IMG/VR virus record: IMGVR_UViG_3300030390_001081
Location: 1 to 64,000 of that record
Origin: an uncultured virus (IMG/VR IMGVR_UViG_3300030390_001081)
Taxonomy: Duplodnaviria > Heunggongvirae > Uroviricota > Caudoviricetes
Strand: one strand, 5' to 3'
DNA: 64,000 nucleotides
Below the pieces are notes generated by a model. That model was not told where the DNA came from. It searched no databases and saw only the letters and a program-made list of their open reading frames with translations. Shown one piece after another: positions 1-64,000 of this stretch; position 1 is the stretch's first letter, and each line of letters begins with the position of its first letter. Position numbers and translations under genes: made by a program.

Positions 1-2
1 AA

Positions 3-770
3 GATTTAGCGGCAGGTAGAGGCAATAAGCTAGAGAATATATCTAAAATAATATATTACGGTGCTGTACAGAATCTTATATTCGCGTCCTTGCAGTCTGC
101 ACTATTTGCTTTTGCCTTTGATGATGAAATAGATGAAAAAGAGCAACAAAAACTTGAACAGAAGCAAGTTAGAATAATTAATACTATGCTTGACTCTGTT
201 CTGAGAGGTACTGGCGTTACTGGTGCCGCAGTGGCAACTATTAAAAATACTGTTATGGAGTTTTTCAAGCAGGAAGAGAAAGGCTTCACTGGTGATCACG
301 CTCAAACTCTTATACAAGTAGCTAATTTATCACCTCCAGTTGGTATTAAGTTTAGAAAGATATACTCAGGTATACAAAGCTACACCTATAACAAAGATGT
401 TATACCGTATATGCTTGCAGAAAATCCTGTTGATATTAAAAANNNNNNNNNNTACAACGCTGTGACAAACGTAATATCAGGGTTTACAAACGTTCCTGTT
501 GACAGAGTACTAAACAAGGTTAACAATATGGTGGAAGTTTTAGATAGTCAAAACGAAAGCTGGCAAAGAGTTGGTTTAACTTTAGGTTGGAATACTTGGG
601 ATTTAAATATAGAAAAAACTGAAGTTGAAGAAGCTAAAGAAGCTGTTGCAAAAATAAAGGCCGATGCAAAAAAGGCTAAGCAACAACAGTGTACCAAAAT
701 AAAGTCTGACAACGAACGATGCAAGATGATGGTTGACAAGCCAAAAAAGAGATGTCACTATCACGATTAA
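3..770 (+). CDS. C-terminal fragment of a large phage (virion/ejection-type) protein ending in a small Cys/His Zn-finger-like motif; 5' truncated
   Basis: Frame is open from base 3 (DLAAGRGNKLENISKIIYYGAVQNLIFASLQ...) and stays in frame across the N gap at 443-452; ends C-x8-RC-x9-CHYH. Confidence 0.6.
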   Translation, partial: DLAAGRGNKLENISKIIYYGAVQNLIFASLQSALFAFAFDDEIDEKEQQKLEQKQVRIINTMLDSVLRGTGVTGAAVATIKNTVMEFFKQEEKGFTGDHAQTLIQVANLSPPVGIKFRKIYSGIQSYTYNKDVIPYMLAENPVDIKXXXXYNAVTNVISGFTNVPVDRVLNKVNNMVEVLDSQNESWQRVGLTLGWNTWDLNIEKTEVEEAKEAVAKIKADAKKAKQQQCTKIKSDNERCKMMVDKPKKRCHYHD

Positions 771-788
771 CGTGTAATAATTATTACT

Positions 789-1814
789 ATGAAGTATATA
801 TTTTTACTACTATTGTTTTGCAACGTTGCAGAAGCTCAGATCAAAAAAGCATTTAAATTTTCTACGTTTTACGTAGCTACTAATGGTGGTACATCTTTGT
901 CTGACAGAGATGTATACTCTGTAGATAATAGTACTTTAGTGTACGACACTGTATTCACTCCTTTTGACTACTCATTAACAATGGGTATAAGAAAGATAAA
1001 GAGATTTCCATACGAAGCTAGAACTCAATTCAAAGACGGTTTAGAAACTTCGTTTTCAGATGCTGCTAGCGTTGGACTATCTCCGTTTGAGTATCTGTTT
1101 GAGCTAGACTATAGAAGACAAGAAGGTGTAGAGTACTTTGATCAAAACCATTTTTTAAGATATGTTAAGCCGCTATGGTTAGCTAAGGTGGAATACTTGA
1201 AAGAAGGATTTGCAGATATAGAATATTTTGAGTCTACTGCTAGACTAAGAATAAACTCTAAAAAGAAACTATCTTTTAATATTGGTGCTGTCAACAGGCT
1301 AGCAGAGCCATACGGTTACGATCCTTTAGAAGAGTGGACTATGTCTACTGGTAATGTTCACTACACGCAGTTGGCTATTCAGGAGGGATATAGCATTGAC
1401 GTGTTTCAATCAGAGTATAAAGATCCGAACGGCAACATTGTTGCGAATAACTCTGCTGTTTGGGAGGAGGTAGTAATACCTACTGTATTAAAAAACTACG
1501 TAGATAAAAAAAGAAATGAATTGCCACAACAACTACAAAACTCGCTAGTTATTGGCTTTGACTTTTATCATTATAAGAAAAACTTCTGGTTACATTCATG
1601 GGGTAATTTAATGCCATATCATTATGACAATGGCGATCAGTTCTCATATCACAACTTTAACGATGGAGAGCAGTGGAATGATTACTCTGGTGGTTTAATA
1701 TTTGGCTACAAGCTAAACAAAAACCTAGGATGTTTCATAGAGGGTAAATACAACAAGTACTGGAATAAAGAGTGGTACAATTTTAAAGCAGGAATAAATT
1801 ACATAATATTTTAA
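789..1814 (+). CDS. Putative outer-membrane beta-barrel protein with Sec signal peptide
   Basis: Signal peptide MKYIFLLLLFCNVAEA|Q; aromatic-rich alternating strands; C-terminal KAGINYIIF ending in Phe (BAM-type beta signal). Confidence 0.6.
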   Translation: MKYIFLLLLFCNVAEAQIKKAFKFSTFYVATNGGTSLSDRDVYSVDNSTLVYDTVFTPFDYSLTMGIRKIKRFPYEARTQFKDGLETSFSDAASVGLSPFEYLFELDYRRQEGVEYFDQNHFLRYVKPLWLAKVEYLKEGFADIEYFESTARLRINSKKKLSFNIGAVNRLAEPYGYDPLEEWTMSTGNVHYTQLAIQEGYSIDVFQSEYKDPNGNIVANNSAVWEEVVIPTVLKNYVDKKRNELPQQLQNSLVIGFDFYHYKKNFWLHSWGNLMPYHYDNGDQFSYHNFNDGEQWNDYSGGLIFGYKLNKNLGCFIEGKYNKYWNKEWYNFKAGINYIIF

Positions 1815-1815
1815 C

Positions 1816-2097
1816 ATGGCAAAAGAGTTAAATGAAAACACTAGTTTCAAGGTTAGTGTACAAACGTTAATAGCAATGGGGTTTGGTATGGCAACGGTTA
1901 TAAGCATGTGGTTTGTTCTGCAAGCCGATATAGCTGAGGCAAAAGAATTACCAGTTCCACCACCACAAGACGTTAGTCGTATGGAATTTGACATGAAAGA
2001 CAAGAATATTAGGTTATCTATTGAGAACACTGAAAAGGCTGTTGATGATTTAAAGGACAGGTTAATAAGAATAGAAGATAAACTAGACAGAAGATAA
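1816..2097 (+). CDS. Small single-pass membrane protein with C-terminal coiled coil
   Basis: Hydrophobic LIAMGFGMATVISMWFVL, Pro linker, heptad-like C-terminus. Confidence 0.6.
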   Translation: MAKELNENTSFKVSVQTLIAMGFGMATVISMWFVLQADIAEAKELPVPPPQDVSRMEFDMKDKNIRLSIENTEKAVDDLKDRLIRIEDKLDRR

Positions 2098-2417
2098 TGA
2101 AAACTATAGCTTTATTATTGTTACTATCTTCATCGGCTTGGGGACAAATAGTTGTAACCCACTTTAACGCTGACTGGAACAGTCCTAATAAAGTAAGCTA
2201 CATTGGAGATTTAACAGACTGTGACATAGTATACGTTGATATAGCTGTAGCTCCAATATTACAGGCTAAGCACGAGATAGTTGTAGTACCTACTGTTGTT
2301 ATATTTAAAGATGGAGAAGAAGTAAAAAGATTTCAAGCTGATATATCCTTTAGCATGAAAGCAACAAGAGAGGATATGCAGGAAATAATTGACGAACTAA
2401 TAATGAGCGACTTTTAA
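2097..2417 (+). CDS. Exported thioredoxin-fold protein lacking CxxC
   Basis: Signal peptide; VVTHFNADWN in place of F-x-A-x-WCxxC; IVVVPTVVIFKDGEEVKRF is a typical Trx C-terminal motif. Confidence 0.7.
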   Translation: MKTIALLLLLSSSAWGQIVVTHFNADWNSPNKVSYIGDLTDCDIVYVDIAVAPILQAKHEIVVVPTVVIFKDGEEVKRFQADISFSMKATREDMQEIIDELIMSDF

Positions 2418-4225
2418 TGAAATATTTATTCACACTATTACTAATAGTAAACATAGCGTTTGCACAGTGTCCTAACGGAACTTATGTAAACATAGTTATT
2501 AATCCGGACCAATACCCAATTGAAACATCTTGGGCTATAATTGATTACTTTGAGGATACTATTGTTGCAGGTGGTCCTTACGACAATATAGTAGGATACG
2601 AACCGCAGCTAATGCAAGTATGTATACCTAATGGTGATTACTTGTTTAATATATCCGATCAATATGGTGATGGTGTTGCTGGTAGTTTATGGGGTGGACA
2701 AGATGGATCTTATTATGTAGTACACTGTGGTGATACTATCGTGCAACCAGACTCTGCTAACTTTGGCTTTGCTGCTTTTCATGGTTTTACACTAGAAGAT
2801 TGTGCTCCGCCTCCACCTGTATTTGGTTGCATGAATGAAATTTATGTAGAGTTTTTACCAGAGGCTACTGTAGATACTGGTATGTGCTTTACAGAAAAAA
2901 TATTTGGTTGCACTGATGTAGAAGCTTTTAACTATGACAACATAGCTAATACAGATATACTAACAGACAGCTGTACCCACACGCTAGAGCTAACAGACTT
3001 AGCTGGTAATGGTTGGGCTGGTTCATATCTACAAGTTTATCAAGGTTATAATTTTATAGGTGAGTTTACTTTAGAAGATGGTTTTGATACCACGTTTACT
3101 TTTAGTTTAAGCATATCAGAACCCGTAAGAGTACAATTTAACATAACTCAACAATCAGACTTTACCGCTGTTCAATGTGGCTATAGCCTTTACTCTGAAG
3201 AGTATGTTGCTATAGATATAGAAGGTGGTTTTATAGATCCAATACCACCATTTGTGTTTATATATAGTGAGCTTGAATGTGGCAATAGTTGCATAGAAAA
3301 AACATACGGTTGTACTGATGATACGGCTTTAAATTATAACGAGAGTGTTAATACAGATGACGAGAGTTGCTACTACGTTGCTGGGTGTACTAATCCAATA
3401 TACCTGGAATATAACGCAGATGCTGACTTTGATAACGGAACCTGTGAGACTCTTGTGATTCTAGGTTGCATGGATGAAGCGGCCTTGAATTATAACCCTG
3501 AAGCAAACACAGAAATAGAAGGCTCTTGTGTTGATGTAGTTTTAGGATGTATGAGTGAGTTAGCATTTAATTTTAACTCTAACGCTAACGTAGATGACGG
3601 ATCATGTATAGCGTATACTTATGGTTGTACTGATCCGTTTGCATTAAACTATGATACAATTGCCAACACAGATGATGGTAGTTGCATAGAAGTAATTAAT
3701 GGCTGTACTGATACTACGGCAATAAACTATAATATAATTGCAAACACTAATAATGGTTCTTGTATTTATCCATTGTCTGGTTGTACTGACCAGACCGCTG
3801 AGAATTATAATATATCAGCTAACGTGTCAGACTCTAGTTGCTATTATTCTGCTGGTTGTTACTCTGGTAATATATATTATATTCCTAATGAGTGTTTTGA
3901 GTGGGTAATAGATGTTGATCAGTTTTGTTGTAATAATGAATGGGATAATAGTTGTGATTATTTATATAACTACTGTTTAGATGGTTGGTCTGGTCCTGTA
4001 GATGTACAAAATTTTGAAAGATTAAATATACAAGTATATCCAAATCCTGCAAAAGAAAGAATATATTTTACTAAATTTGTAAACGTACAAGTGTACAATT
4101 CAAGGGGAGCATTAGTTGGTGAGTATAATAATATTAATTCACTTAATTTAAATTCTGGTATTTATCATTTATTAATAAAATATGATAATATTAGATTGCA
4201 AAAAACTATTATTAAGTTAGACTAA
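2417..4225 (+). CDS. Secreted Cys-rich GCxD-repeat surface protein with T9SS (Por) type A C-terminal sorting-like domain
   Basis: Signal peptide MKYLFTLLLIVNIAFA|Q; nine GC(T/M)x...NYN..AN.DDGSC-type repeats; C-terminal VYPNPA...VYNSRG...SGIYHL...KTIIK. Confidence 0.75.
   Translation: MKYLFTLLLIVNIAFAQCPNGTYVNIVINPDQYPIETSWAIIDYFEDTIVAGGPYDNIVGYEPQLMQVCIPNGDYLFNISDQYGDGVAGSLWGGQDGSYYVVHCGDTIVQPDSANFGFAAFHGFTLEDCAPPPPVFGCMNEIYVEFLPEATVDTGMCFTEKIFGCTDVEAFNYDNIANTDILTDSCTHTLELTDLAGNGWAGSYLQVYQGYNFIGEFTLEDGFDTTFTFSLSISEPVRVQFNITQQSDFTAVQCGYSLYSEEYVAIDIEGGFIDPIPPFVFIYSELECGNSCIEKTYGCTDDTALNYNESVNTDDESCYYVAGCTNPIYLEYNADADFDNGTCETLVILGCMDEAALNYNPEANTEIEGSCVDVVLGCMSELAFNFNSNANVDDGSCIAYTYGCTDPFALNYDTIANTDDGSCIEVINGCTDTTAINYNIIANTNNGSCIYPLSGCTDQTAENYNISANVSDSSCYYSAGCYSGNIYYIPNECFEWVIDVDQFCCNNEWDNSCDYLYNYCLDGWSGPVDVQNFERLNIQVYPNPAKERIYFTKFVNVQVYNSRGALVGEYNNINSLNLNSGIYHLLIKYDNIRLQKTIIKLD
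3302..3841 (+). repeat. Seven tandem ~25-aa GCxD...SC coding repeats (two more near 2819-2975)
   Basis: Directly visible in the translation. Confidence 0.85.
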
Positions 4226-4512
4226 TGCCAAGAGCTGCAAAAAAAATGCCAAAACGCAATAAGAAGAACTTTAGATCTACAAAGTCTGGAGCTGGAATGA
4301 CGCGTGCTGGTGTTAAAGCTTACAGAAAAGCTAACCCAGGTAGTAAATTAAAGACTGCTGTTACAGGTAAAGTTAAAAAAGGTAGTAAAGCTGCTAAAAG
4401 AAGAAAATCTTATTGCTCTCGTAGTTTAGGACAAATGAAAATGCATAGCATTAGTTGTAGCAAAACTCCTAAAAAAAGAATTTGTGCAGCTAGGCGCAGA
4501 TGGAAGTGTTAA
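4225..4512 (+). CDS. Small highly basic protein
   Basis: Lys/Arg-rich; GMTRAGVKAYRKANPGSKLK and RRKSYCSR motifs resemble a common marine phage family. Confidence 0.7.
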   Translation: MPRAAKKMPKRNKKNFRSTKSGAGMTRAGVKAYRKANPGSKLKTAVTGKVKKGSKAAKRRKSYCSRSLGQMKMHSISCSKTPKKRICAARRRWKC

Positions 4513-4513
4513 T

Positions 4514-4783
4514 ATGGCTATAAGAAAAACAGCAAAAGGTGCGTCTCTTAAACGTTGGTTTAAAGAAGATTGGAAAGATGAAAAGGGTAACGTTTGTGGT
4601 TCTTCTAAAAATAAAAAAACAAAAAAGTGTAGACCTAGCAAACGTGTTTCATCAAAAACACCAAGAACCTGGGGATCATTGTCTAAATCGCAAAAGTCAA
4701 AAGCTGTTGCAGAAAAGAAAAAAGTTGGGATGGGTAAAAGAACAAGTGCAATAAGAAAAAAATCTAAAAAGAAAAAAAAGTAA
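4514..4783 (+). CDS. Small highly basic protein (LKRWFKEDWKD family)
   Basis: ATG at 4514 preferred over the upstream GTG; Lys-rich with CG...KCRP motif. Confidence 0.7.
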   Translation: MAIRKTAKGASLKRWFKEDWKDEKGNVCGSSKNKKTKKCRPSKRVSSKTPRTWGSLSKSQKSKAVAEKKKVGMGKRTSAIRKKSKKKKK

Positions 4784-4929
4784 TGGCATTAAAGAAAACT
4801 AAAAAGTTTAAAGTACATATGATGTATAGCAAAGCTGGTAAACAAGTAAAAGCTAATACGTTTAAAAAACATTTGGAGTTAAAGAAAAAAGGTTATAACC
4901 ACGATAAACGTAGACTTAAAAAGAAATGA
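4783..4929 (+). CDS. 48-aa basic protein (not in ORF track)
   Basis: MALKKTKKFKVHMMYSKAGKQVKANTFKKHLELKKKGYNHDKRRLKKK; TAATG coupling to the upstream gene. Confidence 0.65.
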   Translation: MALKKTKKFKVHMMYSKAGKQVKANTFKKHLELKKKGYNHDKRRLKKK

Positions 4930-5054
4930 AAAAAGTAAAAGGCAAACAAAGTAAAATCGCTGGAGCAGCTAAACCATTTAATAAAATTACTGGAGCTGAT
5001 TTTAAAGCATTAAAGAAAAAGAAAAATGCCAGCAAGAAAAAAAAGAAAAAGTAG
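4926..5054 (+). CDS. 42-aa basic protein (not in ORF track)
   Basis: MKKVKGKQSKIAGAAKPFNKITGADFKALKKKKNASKKKKKK; ATGA overlap. Confidence 0.6.
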   Translation: MKKVKGKQSKIAGAAKPFNKITGADFKALKKKKNASKKKKKK

Positions 5055-5187
5055 TACAAAGAAAAAAGGATCAACTAAAGATGCTTGTTACTATAAGGTT
5101 AAAAGCAGCTATAAGGTATTTCCTAGTGCATATGCATCAGGTGCTATAGCTAAATGCAGAAAGAAAAAAGCTCGTGGAAAAAAGTAA
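5026..5187 (+). CDS. 53-aa basic protein with DACY..VK...PSAYASG motif (not in ORF track)
   Basis: MPARKKRKSSTKKKGSTKDACYYKVKSSYKVFPSAYASGAIAKCRKKKARGKK. Confidence 0.65.
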   Translation: MPARKKRKSSTKKKGSTKDACYYKVKSSYKVFPSAYASGAIAKCRKKKARGKK

Positions 5188-5377
5188 GTATTATTACGAA
5201 TACAAAAGGAATTTGGATTGTCCAAATCCTGAAGAATGTTGCAGATGTTGTAAAGCATGCTGCTGTTATTGTCAAGAAAAATGCATAGAACAAAAACAAA
5301 AACAAAAACAAAAACTAAAGCCATTAGTCGCCCAACTAAAAAAATGTGTTGTTGCGATAAAAGAATGGCTAGGATGA
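5174..5377 (+). CDS. Small Cys-rich protein
   Basis: CPNPEECCRCCKACCCYCQEKC cluster; GTG start overlapping the upstream ORF. Confidence 0.45.
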   Translation: MEKSKYYYEYKRNLDCPNPEECCRCCKACCCYCQEKCIEQKQKQKQKLKPLVAQLKKCVVAIKEWLG

Positions 5378-5418
5378 GTACTCAACATAAATAATTAATA
5401 ATTTTAATAATAAATATC

Positions 5419-5523
5419 ATGGCATACGGAATGAAAAAAACATCAGGTAAAATGGCTAAAATGACTAAGAAAAAAGTTAAACCAGCTAAGAAGAAACTAA
5501 TGATGAAGAAAAAGAAAAAATAA
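5419..5523 (+). CDS. 34-aa Lys/Met-rich peptide (not in ORF track)
   Basis: MAYGMKKTSGKMAKMTKKKVKPAKKKLMMKKKKK; A-rich leader; stop abuts the holin ATG. Confidence 0.6.
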   Translation: MAYGMKKTSGKMAKMTKKKVKPAKKKLMMKKKKK

Positions 5524-5958
5524 ATGTTAAACAATCTATTAGGAGGTATTCTCGGTAAGGTTGTAGACAATGCTGAAGGCATATTAGATAAAGTTATAAC
5601 TACGGACAAAGAGCGTGACGCTGCTAAGTTTGAAATTAAAAAACTTTTATTAGATGCAGAGAAAGAAGCTTTTGCTCAAGAAGTAGAAGACAGAAAATCT
5701 GCACGTGCGATGTATAAAGATGACGCTATTATACAAAAAATATTAGCAACATTATTTACTGTAGCATATTTTGGTATTAGTTTTGTAATGTTTCAACACT
5801 TTGTTAATGGTAGTATTGACATGGGTGAGTTTGAAATAAGTTTCATATCTACAATATTTGGTGCTATGAGTGCTAAAGTTAATACTATTATTGACTTCTT
5901 TTTTGGAGGAAGTAGCAATAAAAATAACGAAAGCAATGGCAGTAATAACAACAATTGA
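5524..5958 (+). CDS. Putative holin (3TM holin-like)
   Basis: LDKVITTDKER, EVEDRKSAR, two TM helices, IIDFFFGGS ending. Confidence 0.7.
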   Translation: MLNNLLGGILGKVVDNAEGILDKVITTDKERDAAKFEIKKLLLDAEKEAFAQEVEDRKSARAMYKDDAIIQKILATLFTVAYFGISFVMFQHFVNGSIDMGEFEISFISTIFGAMSAKVNTIIDFFFGGSSNKNNESNGSNNNN

Positions 5959-6169
5959 CGGTATACCATTGTATACAACAATACAAGAGGCATTGCAATA
6001 CGCTGCAACTAATGGTTTAAGTGGTTATCATACTCATACATATCAAGGTCAAACTGGATATATGGGTGGAGCAACACATGATCAAGCTGTCGATGACTTA
6101 AATAGTTTACCACAAAATGTTACTACAATTACCTCTTCTATAGTTAATAATAGTGGTGGAGGATACTAG
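5936..6169 (+). CDS. Hypothetical protein with GYHTH...YM motif
   Basis: In-frame ATG at 5936; His motif is possibly metal-binding. Confidence 0.55.
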   Translation: MAVITTIDGIPLYTTIQEALQYAATNGLSGYHTHTYQGQTGYMGGATHDQAVDDLNSLPQNVTTITSSIVNNSGGGY

Positions 6170-6213: not shown

Positions 6214-6603
6214 ATGGCACAAAATTATACGTTTACTGGAAGTCTTACAATGACTGCAAGTTCTACAACAGGCTATTCTGCAAGCATGAGTGGTTCTACA
6301 ACTTTAAATATTACAGGTGTAGATCAAATTGCTTCAGGAAGAATAGATTGCGCTACAGGTTCTGACGCTACAATTATGGCGGCTCCTGGAGTTGGTAGAA
6401 TATTGTATGTTAAAAACATGGACGATACTAGTACTTTAGAGATATATGAAGGAGCTTCTAGTGATAACGACTTGATAGGTGTATTAAAACCAAATGAGTT
6501 TTTATTTACTATTATAAGAGGTACTGGAACTACTACAGCTAGAGGAACTAGTAATGCAGTAACAGCAGAATATTTTGCGGTAGAAATTGACTCCGCAGCA
6601 TAA
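6214..6603 (+). CDS. Small beta-rich putative virion protein
   Basis: Thr/Ser/Gly-rich; LYVKNMD and LKPNEF motifs shared with the next gene. Confidence 0.55.
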   Translation: MAQNYTFTGSLTMTASSTTGYSASMSGSTTLNITGVDQIASGRIDCATGSDATIMAAPGVGRILYVKNMDDTSTLEIYEGASSDNDLIGVLKPNEFLFTIIRGTGTTTARGTSNAVTAEYFAVEIDSAA

Positions 6604-6620
6604 TTAATAAATTTTAAAAA

Positions 6621-7046
6621 ATGGCAACACAAACAACAAACGTAACTGTTTCGGCTAGTTTTACTTTAACTGATTCTACAGGTAATATTGTTTTTAGTTT
6701 TTCTCCAAGTTTTTCTTCAGCAACAGATACAACTGGCGCTGCTATTACAACTGGTGAGATATTAACAAATGGTACAAGCGACACTACAATTAATTTAGCA
6801 AGACATCACAAGGATGCTATATTTGCTTTTATTAAAAACGTAGATGGTGACTATCCTGTAGCTGTTAAACCAGACGGTGATATAATTGCAGATCTTAAAC
6901 CTACAGAGTTTATGTTTGCACCTGTACATATTGATGGAGCTGGTGATGCATCTACAAATTTAGATATAGACGCTACTACGGCTGCACAGAAAGTACAGTT
7001 TTTACTTTGCGATGGACCAAATACTGGAATTAATACTGACGACTAA
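6621..7046 (+). CDS. Small beta-rich putative virion protein, paralog of 6214-6603
   Basis: FIKNVD and LKPTEF motifs. Confidence 0.55.
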   Translation: MATQTTNVTVSASFTLTDSTGNIVFSFSPSFSSATDTTGAAITTGEILTNGTSDTTINLARHHKDAIFAFIKNVDGDYPVAVKPDGDIIADLKPTEFMFAPVHIDGAGDASTNLDIDATTAAQKVQFLLCDGPNTGINTDD

Positions 7047-7525
7047 TGCGTCTTCAGGTATTAAGATTTAGCTCACAAGCAGATTGTACACACGGTCTGC
7101 TTTTCGAGCTTACAGACATTGGTAAAAGATTTTTATGTTATACTTTAGAAGACGAACATAGAGCTTTTAAAGTTAAAGGAGAAACTAGAATACCTTGTGG
7201 TACATATAATATACAATTAAGAAAGGAGGGTGGATTTCATAGTAGATATAGTAAGAAATATCCTAGTATACATCGCGGTATGTTGCATGTTGTTGATGTG
7301 CCTAACTTTGAATATATTCTTATACATACTGGAAATACTGACGAACATACTGCTGGTTGTCTTATCGTTGGAGACAGTCAAGAAAACAATATTATTCTCC
7401 GCGATGGGTTTGTTGGTAAAAGTGTTAATGCGTATAAAAGGATTTATCCTGGTATTGTTAAAGCATTAGAAAAAGAAGAAGAGGTTACTATAGAATACAT
7501 AGATTTCGATGGCATTAAAAACTAA
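7046..7525 (+). CDS. DUF5675-like protein, candidate endolysin
   Basis: CYTLED, GETRIPCGTY and ILIHTGN...TAGCLIVG motifs; close to the holin. Confidence 0.7.
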   Translation: MRLQVLRFSSQADCTHGLLFELTDIGKRFLCYTLEDEHRAFKVKGETRIPCGTYNIQLRKEGGFHSRYSKKYPSIHRGMLHVVDVPNFEYILIHTGNTDEHTAGCLIVGDSQENNIILRDGFVGKSVNAYKRIYPGIVKALEKEEEVTIEYIDFDGIKN

Positions 7526-34873: not shown

Positions 34874-35566
34874 ATGGCACATTTAGTTTACATTAAAGCA
34901 AAGAATTTAAAGAAGTTTAACTATGCATCTTTTGCTGCATATAAAAACAGACAAGGTAAAACAGTAAAGCTTATTGATCCAGATGGACAACCATTAGATA
35001 AATGGGAGCTTACACAATCAATGAGAGCGTTTGATTTAGATAATGAACACGACAACACAGTGTATCAATTTTTAAAAGATCATCCATTAATTAAAAGAGG
35101 TGGATTTACTTTTGTTGATACTAGAAAGAACGAAGAAGAAAATGCAGCAGCAGCTATTGCATCAGCAGAAGCAGTTACGCTTGCTACAAGTATGACACCA
35201 TCAGAGTATGATGATATGGCAAGACTTATTGGTATATCTATACACTTTGATGATATTGTTACTAAAGCAAAAGTATTGCAATATGCAAACAAGAGTCCTG
35301 AAAAATTCGTACAAACCTATAATAATAAAGATAAAGACTTTTATGTTTTCTTAAAAAAAGCAGAAGAAAAGAAACTTATATCTTATATTAATGGAGTTTG
35401 GAAGTATGGTTCTAACAGTATAGGACTAACTGATGAAGCTGCAATTGAGTGGTTAAAAGACAACAAAGATGTATATGCTCTTATGAAAAATGAACTAAGA
35501 GGTAGCTCAACAAATGAAATGGTAGATATAGCTAAAAAAAGTAAAAAATCTAAAGTAACTAAATAA
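34874..35566 (+). CDS. Conserved crAss-like structural-module protein
   Basis: Position after the capsid genes; YQFLKDHP and IG.T...AIEWLKD motifs. Confidence 0.55.
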   Translation: MAHLVYIKAKNLKKFNYASFAAYKNRQGKTVKLIDPDGQPLDKWELTQSMRAFDLDNEHDNTVYQFLKDHPLIKRGGFTFVDTRKNEEENAAAAIASAEAVTLATSMTPSEYDDMARLIGISIHFDDIVTKAKVLQYANKSPEKFVQTYNNKDKDFYVFLKKAEEKKLISYINGVWKYGSNSIGLTDEAAIEWLKDNKDVYALMKNELRGSSTNEMVDIAKKSKKSKVTK

Positions 35567-36520
35567 TGACATTTGCTGAAGCTCACGAACATATGGACTT
35601 GCTTTTAGATAAAGCAGACCAACCCTATTTTGTATCTGAAGAAAAAGATAAATTTTTAAACATAGCTCTTTTTGACTGGTTTGAAAAATCAATGGATCAG
35701 TATGATACTAATCCTGAAATATCTGCAGTAATAGGAAAGCTAGTGAGAGAAGCAACTACAAAGTTTGAGTATACAAATTTAATGTATTTTCATAATGCTA
35801 ACTATGGAGCACAAACCGTTCCTTATAGAGAGCCTGCGAATCTTGCTGGATCAACAACTTATGGTGTACCAGTTAATACATTAAGAAGTTTATCTCGTTA
35901 TCCTATAGCACGATTAATACATTTACAAGTTAGATATGCAGATTTAGATGGAAACTATGGAAATTTTGTAGAAGCATCTAAAGCTAAATCGAATGAAGTG
36001 GGAACATTATCTTCTGATATTAATAGCGATCCATTTAATAAAGCTGACGACAATAATGTAAAATATTATTTACAAGGTCCTTTTTTTAAAGTATTACCTG
36101 TTGAATTTGCAGATGGAAAAACATTATTAGGATGGAGGTCTAGTGATGCTAATTATTCTACTATTTATGGAGATGGAAATGTTGGAGAATGTAAATTTAG
36201 AGCTATAACGTTTCCTTTAGCTTGTAATGTTACTAATGGCNNNNNNNNNNGATATGGATTTTTCAGCTATTCCAAATGATCCTGCTACGTGGGGAACTGC
36301 TAATTGTCAAATAGGTTCTTTAACTTTTCAACAAAGTAGAGATACTATTACAGATGAAGTAACTTATAGTAATAGTCCAGTAGGAGCACAAGCTTGGGGT
36401 TGGCCTATACATATATGTCACGAAATAGTACAAAATGCAGTTAGATTGATGACTAGTAATATTGAAAGTGATAATTATCAAAATCAATTTATTGAGGCAC
36501 AGCAGAGCAAATCAACATAA
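35566..36520 (+). CDS. Tail ring/adaptor protein; probably one gene split by the N gap at 36241-36250
   Basis: N-terminal EEKDKFLNIA and C-terminal HEIVQNAV motifs typical of ring proteins; frame changes exactly at the gap. Confidence 0.6.
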
Positions 36521-37839: not shown

Positions 37840-38301
37840 ATGGCAGATACAGACGTAAACGCAGCCGCACTCACGGTAACTATAACAGAATCTTTAGCAG
37901 TTGGACATGATGTTACAGCAGATGCAAGAAATTTTGCACAAACAATGACTCATACATTTGCAACAATAGCTAATGTATCAAAACGTGTTTTAAAATTAGA
38001 AAACACAAATTTAACTGAAGTAGCTACATTTGGATCGGGAGAGTCTGTAGGAACTTTTAAAAGAGCTTCTGTTAAATATATAAGGGTAACCAATTTAGAT
38101 GGAACAGCAGCTCTGCAAGTAGGTTTAGATGACGAAGACTCTGACGCTGGTTATACATCAGTAGCTGCTGCTACAAGTATTATGTATACTGGAACTACTG
38201 TAGAAGGTGGAACCGATGGATCTACATTAGATAATGCAACTGCTTTAAAAGTAAAAGGAATTGCTGGACATCAATTAGAAGTGTTTATAGCTTCTACATA
38301 A
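37840..38301 (+). CDS. Small putative virion protein
   Basis: LTVTITES, VKYIRVTNLD, LEVFIAS motifs. Confidence 0.55.
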   Translation: MADTDVNAAALTVTITESLAVGHDVTADARNFAQTMTHTFATIANVSKRVLKLENTNLTEVATFGSGESVGTFKRASVKYIRVTNLDGTAALQVGLDDEDSDAGYTSVAAATSIMYTGTTVEGGTDGSTLDNATALKVKGIAGHQLEVFIAST

Positions 38302-62896: not shown

Positions 62897-63262
62897 ATGG
62901 CAAATACAAATGACGTAAATGGTGCAGCACTAGGTAAATATGGTGTAGCTTATATGGATACAACCGATTTATTTACACCACCAAATGGTATGGTGATTGT
63001 AGCTATACAGTTTCTTGCACAAAATACTTTAAATACTTTAACGTCTTTTGATACTGATTCTGGTACTAGAAGGTATGCGAATACTGCTAATGCAGCACAT
63101 GCAGCAGAGGATAATTTAGAAGGAAAAAATGGTGCGCAGTTAGACAATACTGCTATATTTCCAGTAGGAACAATTATTTATGGTAGATGGAGTACTGTAA
63201 AATTACAAACTGCAGATTCTAATGGAGGTATATTAATTTATTTATCACCAAAAGGTAGTTAG
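62897..63262 (+). CDS. Small putative virion protein
   Basis: VAIQFL and FPVGTIIYGRW motifs. Confidence 0.6.
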   Translation: MANTNDVNGAALGKYGVAYMDTTDLFTPPNGMVIVAIQFLAQNTLNTLTSFDTDSGTRRYANTANAAHAAEDNLEGKNGAQLDNTAIFPVGTIIYGRWSTVKLQTADSNGGILIYLSPKGS

Positions 63263-63263
63263 A

Positions 63264-63686
63264 ATGTCAATTAAAAAAGATTATACAAATAGTACTATAA
63301 GAAACGATTACAAAAGTAGAGTTAAAAGTCAAACTCTTACTAAAATTGTTGTAGAAAATGAAGAAAAAAGAAGTAGAGCGGAACTATTAGATATGGTTGA
63401 AGAATTATTTGAAGGACAAAAAAAACAATTAGACTTTAGAGATCTACGAGCTATGATTCATATGCTTGTAAAATCTGTAGAAAATAATACAGATGATGAT
63501 ACAGGAGCTACAGCTGGACAAGTAACAGCTATCAACGCTAATACAGCTAAAATAACTCAAGGTTTAAATACAGCAAACTCAAGTATGACATTTGATATAA
63601 TTGAGAGTAGAGGTGCATATAGTATAAGAATTAATGTCGTTTGCGATGACGGCCAAACAAGAACATTTACAACAAGTTTAAGATAA
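63264..63686 (+). CDS. Hypothetical (fibre-like) protein
   Basis: Coiled segment with AINANTAKIT motif. Confidence 0.5.
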   Translation: MSIKKDYTNSTIRNDYKSRVKSQTLTKIVVENEEKRSRAELLDMVEELFEGQKKQLDFRDLRAMIHMLVKSVENNTDDDTGATAGQVTAINANTAKITQGLNTANSSMTFDIIESRGAYSIRINVVCDDGQTRTFTTSLR

Positions 63687-63693
63687 AAAAATT

Positions 63694-64000
63694 ATGGCAA
63701 ATAATACAGATATATATAATGCAACGCTTGGTCAATATGGATCATCGTTTATTACAGGTGACGGTGGAACTGTCGATTTAAATGGTACTTCATCAACAAT
63801 GTTTGTAATAGCAATTACAATGTTAGCTGATACAACATTTCAGAACTTACAAACTTATAAAGGTGAGATAAAATCTATAAGTACAGTTACAGCTGAAAAT
63901 GATCATGATGCAGAATTTGGTGCAGCATCAAATGCTACTGATATTACTACATCACACACTTTTCCAAAAGGTGTAACAATATTTGGAAGATGGGATTTTG
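63694..64000 (+). CDS. Paralog of 62897-63262, 3' truncated
   Basis: MANNTDIYNATLGQYG...IAITML...FPKGVTIFGRW. Confidence 0.65.
   Translation, partial: MANNTDIYNATLGQYGSSFITGDGGTVDLNGTSSTMFVIAITMLADTTFQNLQTYKGEIKSISTVTAENDHDAEFGAASNATDITTSHTFPKGVTIFGRWDF

What the first reader, a model, noticed from the sequence alone, without database searches (positions are those of the whole stretch)
789..4225. Phage-encoded cell-surface module ending in a cargo for the host type IX secretion system
Seen: four tightly coupled genes (1-nt gap or TAATG overlaps), all envelope-targeted. They encode a signal-peptide beta-barrel ending in Phe, a TM/coiled-coil protein, an exported Trx fold, and a signal-peptide protein with nine disulfide-type GCxD repeats plus a C-terminal YPNP...G.Y...K.IK domain (4028-4225). 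Known: that domain pattern is the type A sorting signal of the Bacteroidota T9SS, and virion proteins assembled in the cytoplasm do not need Sec signals. Inference: the phage remodels the infected cell surface through host Sec/BAM/T9SS, for example for superinfection exclusion, adhesion or grazer avoidance, with the barrel possibly serving as anchor or shuttle. I know of no characterised phage system like this.
Basis: partly seen in the sequence, partly recalled or inferred. Interest (0 to 1): 0.85.

Follow-up and report, generated by a model that had tools for sequence, protein, structure and literature searches.

The report
Phage envelope trio beside lysis genes
Uncultured ocean phages of Bacteroidota carry an undescribed set of inner-membrane, periplasmic and outer-membrane proteins next to their cell-wall-cutting gene, probably to control how or when the host bursts; the secreted surface protein is an optional add-on of a known kind, and this copy is stitched together from two phages.

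Summary
The four ORFs are real and the type A T9SS signal passes TIGR04183 and PF18962 cut-offs. The block as read is an assembly chimera: bases 1-2998 come from a second phage, joined inside the cargo gene to a 64-kb circle that has its own copy at the contig end. The module is real in both phages.

The core is not the cargo. It is nested: membrane coiled coil (T) + CxxC-less thioredoxin fold (X), then a 12-strand barrel (B), then cargo (C): TXBC 103, TXB 31, TX 16, TX-C 2 of 152 loci. It lies within 2.5 kb upstream of a confirmed or presumed endolysin in 55 of 65 loci. T+X never occurs with a small holin-like gene that fills the same slot (0 of 41). X's C-terminal Phe tail tracks the barrel.

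Best reading: a trans-envelope lysis-control chain (0.35); rivals are spanin analogue (0.25) and superinfection block (0.22). Phage T9SS cargo is published (PMC7468147). This scan noted the trio before on other DNA; the chimera, swap, Phe link and host-chromosome copies were not in the notes seen.

The parts
1..2998 (.). DNA of a second phage (different giant-protein lineage), misjoined to the circular genome
   Evidence: 1-1200 is 97-100% identical to L050; depth 78-94 against 111-139 for 2941-4579 in run X1; ORF 3-770 has no similarity to the circle's giant protein
789..1814 (+). B: outer-membrane 12-strand beta-barrel with signal peptide, C-terminal Phe, an alpha/beta insert in one long loop and a conserved 30-residue segment on the short-turn side
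   Evidence: AlphaFold2 pLDDT 87, pTM 0.79; only generic barrel matches; 3553 clusters at 90% identity, the 120 listed carry no Pfam family or functional name; sidedness inferred from loop lengths
1816..2097 (+). T: single-pass inner-membrane protein with about 58 residues of helix and coiled coil, probably periplasmic; invariant E-x3-KD-x3-R motif
   Evidence: hydropathy; alignment A3; more K/R before the helix in 122 of 187 homologues, after it in 5, equal in 60
2097..2417 (+). X: exported thioredoxin fold without CxxC, with invariant cis-Pro-type Pro and a C-terminal Phe tail
2417..4225 (+). C: T9SS type A cargo: signal peptide, two beta-sandwich domains, nine Cys repeats, a small Cys-rich domain and the sorting domain. 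Chimeric here (junction at codon 195)
2999..3073 (.). 75-nt stretch identical to the contig end: the point where the circle closes and the foreign tail joins
4034..4222 (+). T9SS type A C-terminal sorting domain (residues 540-602)
   Evidence: TIGR04183 27.4 bits, PF18962 29.1 bits, both above cut-off
5524..5958 (+). Holin-like membrane protein (GTA_holin_3TM / phrog_3427 type)
   Evidence: PF11351 15 bits, below cut-off; homologue in L053 reaches cut-off; 76-82% homologues match phrog_3427 'holin'
7046..7525 (+). DUF5675 protein, presumed endolysin
   Evidence: PF18925 E 4e-27, weak Tlde1_dom; the endolysin label is inferred, because M15 peptidases and amidases fill the same slot in other lineages

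Best explanation
T, X and B form a chain across the envelope of the infected Bacteroidota cell that belongs to the phage's lysis programme and most likely sets lysis timing. T is a holin-like single-pass inner-membrane protein with a periplasmic coiled coil. X is an exported, redox-dead thioredoxin fold that binds T and restrains it, as the T4 antiholin RI does with holin T. Where present, the barrel B holds X by its C-terminal Phe tail and couples this switch to events at the cell surface, such as a second phage landing. The cargo C is a later, variable add-on that the host T9SS exports to the surface as a decoy, adhesin or sensor.

Shown: genes, folds, signals, nesting, linkage to endolysins, slot swap and the Phe-barrel correlation. 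Inferred: topology, all binding, holin or antiholin activity, sensing, and the cargo's role.
For: (1) Nesting: TXBC 103, TXB 31, TX 16, TX-C 2 of 152 loci with at least 4 kb on both sides of T; T never lacks X (loci overlap, so these are not independent genomes). (2) An endolysin-type gene starts within 2.5 kb downstream in 55 of 65 loci and abuts the module in 27. Three unrelated families are involved: DUF5675 32, M15 14, amidase 9. Two of the 10 misses have an endolysin my profiles or direction missed (L084, L087). (3) Among 46 loci found by a shared holin-like gene, the slot before the endolysin holds TXB (10), TX (7), a 48-residue two-helix holin-like gene (24) or none (5), with near-identical flanks (L133 against L146). 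That gene co-occurs with T+X in 0 of 41 loci, and a 72-residue TM/coiled-coil gene in 0 of 12. The TX state needs 8 changes on the tree. (4) The 48-residue family hits phrog_920 'holin' weakly in 3 of 7 members tested (E 0.003-0.07); 6 of 64 T proteins hit phrog_1296 'holin' (best 6.9e-5). (5) After correcting two rows: 152 unique X proteins with a barrel end in Phe, 2 have it next to last, 35 without a barrel lack the tail, and 1 without a barrel keeps it. Five TX-only records have no barrel anywhere, 4 of them at least 90% complete. (6) dN/dS is 0.03-0.09 for T, X and B in two phage pairs. (7) Precedent for the topology: T4 holin T with a periplasmic domain plus antiholin RI with a cleavable signal peptide (PMC8385771 abstract; PMC11413866 passages).
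Against: No sequence or family match to T4 T, RI or any holin Pfam family among 64 T proteins; the PHROG hit inspected covers mostly the hydrophobic helix. A separate holin-like gene is present in this genome and in 5 of 5 near-complete module phages, so T is not needed as the only holin. The swap may reflect a recombination slot rather than equal function: only 4 independent pairs on well-supported branches (sign test p 0.125-0.25) and 2 in the window's own clade (p 0.5-1). Three other small membrane families do co-occur with T+X (14 of 41, 11 of 23, 2 of 10). The 35 Phe-less X proteins come from one related group and may be one event. Intact copies sit in the chromosomes of two Flavobacteriaceae MAGs with no endolysin in view, which a lysis role does not predict. 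No expression data.
Confidence: 0.35

Rival explanations
1. T-X-B is a spanin analogue: a three-part bridge between inner and outer membrane that breaks or fuses the outer membrane once the endolysin has removed the wall, with a beta-barrel in place of the lipoprotein anchor.
For: T has i-spanin topology. The complete circle has no lipoprotein and no other late single-pass coiled-coil protein. Holin-like and endolysin-like genes are already present, leaving the outer-membrane step open. 18 of 95 barrel ORFs carry a lipobox-like leader, as does X in L082 by eye. The Phe tail links X to B. Known spanin pairs span 62-300 periplasmic residues, and 91 of 677 phages had no spanin found (PMC6139136 passages).
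Against: TX-only phages have no outer-membrane anchor: no barrel and no Cys in the X leader. Relatives without the module also show no lipoprotein spanin near the endolysin or holin (L102-L261 scan), so the module does not replace a spanin. It swaps with a 48-residue membrane protein too short to span the periplasm.
Confidence: 0.25
2. The module blocks further phage adsorption or DNA entry (superinfection exclusion, or masking of receptors so that progeny are not lost on debris). It sits between tail and lysis genes because that is a late-expressed cassette slot.
For: Two Flavobacteriaceae MAGs keep B-T-X at one chromosomal site after host genes (fabH, htpG and others, named from their translations), 89% identical, dN/dS 0.28-0.36; a host would gain from phage resistance. 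B has a large exposed insert. In distant phages the trio follows tail-fibre genes. The cargo is variable in length (about 600-1250 residues) and mosaic. The idea is proposed for T9SS cargo in PMC7468147.
Against: It does not explain overlap with the endolysin start codon across three endolysin families or the exclusion of the holin-like gene. Host copies are rare (0 of 80 relatives of G001; no convincing match in 300 family genomes besides G002), lie at contig ends and may be prophage edges.
Confidence: 0.22
3. One reading: a surface-display unit built around the T9SS cargo, with the barrel as its dedicated shuttle or anchor and T and X as helpers.
For: Cargo and barrel co-occur in 103 of 152 loci; the sorting signal is real; type B cargo is clustered with cognate PorP/SprF barrels (PMC10202324).
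Against: The signal is type A, which uses host PorV. The barrel occurs without cargo in 23 of 75 wide-view loci and throughout the distant clade. Cargo occurs without a barrel in L372. T+X persists without either.
Confidence: 0.07

Closest known systems
Phage-encoded T9SS type A cargo ('Cryophage', PMC7468147; T9SS sorting-domain ORFs in crAss-like contigs, PMC6949934)
   Same: A Bacteroidota phage gene with a type A sorting domain, variable between strains, proposed to use the host T9SS.
   Different: Those cargoes are an endoglucanase, a GH39 and a PA14 protein, or BACON-linked; this one is a Cys-repeat rod with two beta-sandwich heads. The passages read describe no barrel, coiled-coil or thioredoxin partner.
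T4 lysis-inhibition system: holin T and periplasmic antiholin RI (PMC8385771, PMC11413866)
   Same: Single-pass inner-membrane protein with a periplasmic domain, plus a small exported partner with a cleavable signal peptide.
   Different: No sequence or family match; the periplasmic part here is a short coiled coil and the partner a thioredoxin fold. T4 has no barrel or T9SS cargo in this system, and a second holin-like gene is present here.
Two-component spanins (lambda Rz/Rz1; PMC6139136)
   Same: Type II inner-membrane coiled-coil protein encoded beside the endolysin, with a route to the outer membrane.
   Different: No outer-membrane lipoprotein partner in the window's copy or the circle's copy; a soluble thioredoxin fold and a 12-strand barrel instead; some phages have T+X with no outer-membrane part.
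PorV and PorP/SprF T9SS shuttle barrels (PMC10202324)
   Same: Outer-membrane barrel encoded next to a T9SS cargo.
   Different: Cognate barrels serve type B cargo; this cargo is type A. The model has 12 strands (PorV recalled as 14). The barrel is kept without cargo.
NanC/KdgM-type and autotransporter 12-strand barrels
   Same: Strand number and general fold (Foldseek E 1e-3, TM 0.34-0.50; VIA Z 9-10 at rmsd 4-7).
   Different: Under 12% identity; scores tie with unrelated barrels, so no function transfers.

Membership tests
T9SS type A cargo | C-terminal domain above TIGR04183 / PF18962 cut-off | tested here: met
   27.4 bits (cut-off 23) and 29.1 bits (cut-off 27); 3 of 4 homologues tested also pass, L086 has no match
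T9SS type A cargo | N-terminal Sec signal peptide | tested here: inconclusive
   Hydrophobic leader ending AFA|Q seen by eye, and similar leaders in the homologues with intact starts; no signal-peptide predictor available
T9SS type A cargo | Secretion depends on host T9SS and PorV | not testable with these tools
   Needs expression in wild-type and T9SS-mutant cells
PorP/SprF-type dedicated shuttle | Partner cargo bears a type B sorting domain | tested here: not met
   Only the type A model matched in NCBIfam and Pfam
PorP/SprF-type dedicated shuttle | Barrel is kept only with its cargo | tested here: not met
   Barrel without cargo in 23 of 75 wide-view loci; cargo without barrel in L372
PorV / PorP barrel fold | Structural match to PorV-like barrels | tested here: inconclusive
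   Fold searches returned only generic, tied barrel matches
Two-component spanin | Type II inner-membrane protein with periplasmic coiled coil | tested here: met
   One hydrophobic helix, heptad tail, charge bias favouring N-in in 122 of 187; topology is predicted, not measured
Two-component spanin | Outer-membrane lipoprotein partner | tested here: not met
   No lipobox ORF in the genome scan; X and B of this copy have no lipobox. 18 of 95 barrel homologues have a lipobox-like leader
Two-component spanin | Complements an Rz/Rz1-type lysis defect | not testable with these tools
   Bench test
T4 T/RI holin-antiholin | Sequence family match to holin T or antiholin RI | tested here: not met
   No such Pfam or PHROG family among 64 T proteins at E 0.01; X is a thioredoxin fold
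T4 T/RI holin-antiholin | Single-pass membrane protein plus exported small partner, always together | tested here: met
   T with X in 152 of 152 wide-view loci
T4 T/RI holin-antiholin | Hole formation by T, inhibited by the partner; delay on superinfection | not testable with these tools
   Bench test
Redox-active thioredoxin / Dsb | CxxC active site | tested here: not met
   0 of 60 rows have CxxC past residue 25

The most novel reading that the evidence does not exclude
A new class of phage lysis machine built in steps: an inner-membrane coiled-coil protein and a redox-dead periplasmic thioredoxin that replace a small holin-like gene, extended by a phage-made outer-membrane beta-barrel docked through a C-terminal Phe tail, and topped by a T9SS-exported surface protein. 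Together they would let abundant marine Bacteroidota phages sense the cell surface and time or carry out lysis, and some hosts would have captured the trio.
Probability: 0.3. Interest if true: 0.88.

Novelty: new variant of a known kind. Interest (0 to 1): 0.68.

Why it matters
Many phages of Gram-negative hosts have no recognisable spanin (91 of 677 in PMC6139136), and lysis inhibition is described for only a few phages (T-even, N4 and a Vibrio phage in the listings). This barrel family is large (3553 clusters at 90% identity; 435 representatives at 50%) and occurs in several phage lineages, yet neither B nor T matched any record in the INPHARED phage collection by tblastn. If the trio times lysis or opens the outer membrane, it names the missing step for common ocean phages of polysaccharide-degrading bacteria. 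The natural series TX, TXB, TXBC and the holin-like alternative gives a ready set of constructs to test. The chimera matters in practice: the 602-residue cargo of this window is not a natural protein, and P0288 should be used instead.

Tried and rejected
Complex prediction (barrel + three copies of T's outer part + X as partner): no answer, score 0.30 against a mark of 0.32, controls not run; not used for or against binding.

Host DNA misassembled onto the phage: rejected. No close barrel relative in GTDB genomes. The alignment search gave 15 loci, all in MAGs; of the 12 inspected, 10 look like phage contigs and two are the host-chromosome copies. The cargo's N-terminal part found none.

A true tandem duplication or recombinant in one genome: disfavoured by bridging contigs and P0288; raw reads were not available, so a rare natural recombinant is not excluded.

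Expression: the one RNA run held 0.05 of the words and gave two short pieces, one with 19 differences in 278 letters; no evidence either way. Most of 4600-6000 had little or no cover in the laid runs; the tool warns that holes prove nothing, and close relatives L182 and L183 show the same gene order from cargo to DUF5675.

Fold identity of the barrel: PorV-type chains were not among listed rows; best rows tie among TamA, EstA, OmpG and NanC. One unnamed viral model matches well (A0A516LKJ4, E 4e-23, 21% identity). The PDB sequence search gave nothing. Atlas features gave generic barrels for B and unnamed viral clusters for T.

Cargo head domains: model pLDDT 68; Foldseek no hit at E 0.001, weak C2/PLAT rows; best Z 7.3 to a calcium-dependent carbohydrate-binding module, under the level that the tool calls meaningful.

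T as the genome's only holin: rejected. A general exclusion between the module and all small membrane genes: rejected; it holds for two of five families, which also weakens the lumped tree test. My ATG-only ORF caller missed the barrel in L412; counts were redone stop-to-stop.

Literature: searches returned no paper that, from its listing or the passages read, describes the trio; subscription papers and all supplements were not seen.
Full report
1. Observation. The four ORFs exist as described. ORF4 passes the curated cut-offs for the T9SS type A sorting domain. It has nine GC[TM][DNS] repeats, six strictly GCxD, and 31 cysteines. ORF3 is a thioredoxin fold without CxxC in 60 of 60 aligned rows past residue 25. 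ORF1 folds with high confidence as a 12-strand barrel. Its long loops and the helical insert fall on one side and short basic turns on the other, which I read as outside and periplasm (inference). The contig is a tailed phage: terminase, portal and major head protein match PHROG families, and the head protein is 25-28% identical to those of crAss-like gut phages, with Flavobacterium phages also among the 61 matching records.

2. The block is a chimera of two phages. G000 is one 67,150-nt contig whose last 75 nt equal 2999-3073. Its end carries a second copy of the module: barrel 64062-65105, T 65107-65382, X 65382-65735, an extra 243-residue ORF, and the start of the cargo. The copies are 67, 69, 53 and 85% identical to the window's. 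Window 1-1200 is 97-100% identical to L050, a phage with a different giant protein. In runs X1 and X3 the contigs bridging 2999 differ from the window at 2977, 2989, 2990 and 2998 at full depth, and these are exactly the contig-end letters. P0288, on a separate 63.8-kb contig, equals the contig-end cargo start and the window's cargo from residue 195 on. These runs belong to one study and may include the source sample. So 2999-67150 is a circle and 1-2998 a foreign tail. Both phages have the module, so the biology stands.

3. Distribution. The barrel has 3553 relatives at 90% clustering and 435 at 50%. It has no match in INPHARED. Of 52 barrel loci with wide flanks, 52 have T and X and 38 the cargo; in the enlarged set, 75 of 75 and 52 of 75. 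Seen from T, the series is TXBC 103, TXB 31, TX 16, TX-C 2 of 152. Loci overlap and many phages are close kin, so these are tallies, not independent events. The distant clade (32-37% barrel identity) has no cargo in the flanks seen and places the trio between tail-fibre genes and the endolysin. T, X and B are under strong purifying selection in two phage pairs (dN/dS 0.03-0.09; cargo 0.09 and 0.20).

4. Link to lysis. An endolysin-type gene begins within 2.5 kb after the module in 55 of 65 loci with room to see it, and abuts it in 27. M15 peptidase and Amidase_2 are Pfam-confirmed on examples; DUF5675 as endolysin is my inference. In this genome the DUF5675 gene lies 2.8 kb after the cargo, with the holin-like gene between. 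In five near-complete phages of the other lineage the holin-like gene is present elsewhere in the genome, and in four of them the module stays by the DUF5675 gene (L007 is the exception). The circle has no lipoprotein candidate (a simple pattern scan).

5. Slot swap. I searched from the lysis genes outward to see what relatives without the module carry (best 80 of 348, 429 and 282 hits). Of 46 holin-anchored loci with at least 3.2 kb upstream, 10 have TXB, 7 TX only, 24 a 48-residue two-helix membrane gene and 5 none; 34 loci with shorter flanks were left out. One of the 24 (L174) also has a weak T-like hit without X. Across 478 loci that gene never occurs with T+X (0 of 41), nor does a 72-residue TM/coiled-coil gene from the window's clade (0 of 12), whose N-terminus resembles T's weakly (hhalign probability 34.5%). 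Three other small membrane families do co-occur. On a tree of the anchor protein the TX state changes 8 times; 4 independent pairs on well-supported branches go the expected way or tie, never against, but cannot reach significance. No lipoprotein spanin was seen near the anchors in either class. That weakens the idea that the trio replaces a spanin.

6. The Phe tail. X ends in Phe in 150 of 152 unique sequences with a barrel, and the other two end one residue later. Of 38 with no barrel in view, 35 lack the tail; two of the remaining three have a barrel after all, and L372 is a real exception. Barrel absence was checked by tblastn in the 35 loci and in five whole records. The 35 belong to one group, so this may be a single coupled loss. 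It suggests that X's tail engages B (inference).

7. Host copies. Two Flavobacteriaceae MAGs carry B-T-X at the same chromosomal site after housekeeping genes, 89% identical, with dN/dS 0.28-0.36 against 0.41 for the flanking nuclease gene. Both contigs end at or just after X. No copy was found in 80 relatives of G001, and none convincing in 300 family genomes besides G002 (two marginal hits in long unrelated frames). They point to a flavobacterial host range and fit either capture for phage resistance or a prophage edge.

8. The cargo. It has two beta-sandwich heads of no clear family, an acidic Cys-repeat stalk (Lys+Arg under 1% of residues 17-530) and the sorting domain. By the known pathway, type A cargo is shuttled by PorV, cut by PorU and anchored to A-LPS or released (PMC10202324 passages). 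That would put the heads at the end of a stalk on the infected cell (inference). Phage T9SS cargo is already reported (PMC7468147 passages; PMC6949934 passages).

9. Mechanism. The minimal unit T+X has the layout of T4 holin T and antiholin RI (PMC8385771 abstract; PMC11413866 passages), occupies the place of a holin-like gene and sits by the endolysin. I therefore favour lysis timing, with B as a surface-coupled extension (0.35). The spanin analogue (0.25; PMC6139136 passages) fits the TXB form but not TX. Superinfection block (0.22) fits the host copies and the cargo but not the tie to endolysins. The two lysis readings together come to about 0.6. In isolated flavobacterial phages lysis genes are only partly identified; unimolecular spanins were annotated in two (PMC8776804 passages).

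10. Novelty. The cargo is a new member of a known kind. The trio fails membership of spanins, T/RI and PorP/SprF shuttles and was not found in the literature searches (supplements and subscription papers not seen). Seven earlier notes of this scan describe the same set on other DNA; they are not independent support. A word search for the swap found no note. Nothing about function is tested, so I score 0.68.

Noticed in passing
G000:C1:64062-67150 (beyond the window's end): The circular phage's own module: barrel, T, X, an extra 243-residue ORF with no obvious signal peptide (not annotated here), and the cargo start.
   Followed up: partly
L092:7902-9796 and L093:1957-3724: B-T-X in host chromosome context in two Flavobacteriaceae MAGs; synonymous divergence rises from 0.12 (nuclease) to 0.31 (B), 0.67 (T) and 1.4 (X), as if the downstream genes were replaced.
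   Followed up: partly
L067:5895-6038, L063:8061-8207 and relatives: A conserved 47-residue ORF rich in aromatic and beta-forming residues lies between endolysin and holin-like gene in one siphovirus-like clade, whichever gene fills the upstream slot (45 ORFs); no Pfam match. A candidate outer-membrane-active peptide.
   Followed up: partly
L006, L007, L013, L048 barrels; L082 X: An interchangeable leader with a lipobox-like Cys followed by a short basic stretch and two more Cys appears on 18 of 95 barrel ORFs and on one X protein; some barrels may also be lipoproteins.
   Followed up: partly
window 4225-5521: A run of short, very basic ORFs (DUF6321, DUF5872 and others) between the cargo and the holin-like gene; homologues recur near the module in many loci.
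   Followed up: no
L009:1049-5815, L015:1352-5326, L021:827-5293: Proteins of 1150-1590 residues with the same Cys repeats but no evident leader or sorting motif lie upstream of the module, probably virion or tail proteins sharing the repeat.
   Followed up: no
window 6214-7046, 37840-38301, 62897-63999: Several 120-155-residue Thr/Ala-rich proteins of similar style flank the module and tail region; larger arrays occur in L081, L086 and L372.
   Followed up: no
L084:10580-11779, L085:3664-4833, L049:12536-13186: Membrane-anchored coiled-coil proteins of 216-399 residues near the lysis genes in three module-bearing phages; possible separate spanin-like proteins, no Pfam family at cut-off.
   Followed up: partly
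window 443-452 and 36241-36250: Two 10-N scaffold gaps; contigs show the first is 3 bases too long. The second interrupts the ORF at 35566-36279.
   Followed up: partly
L086:5341-7578: A cargo homologue whose C-terminus lacks the YPNP motif and has no Pfam sorting-domain match; possibly another sorting-signal type.
   Followed up: no
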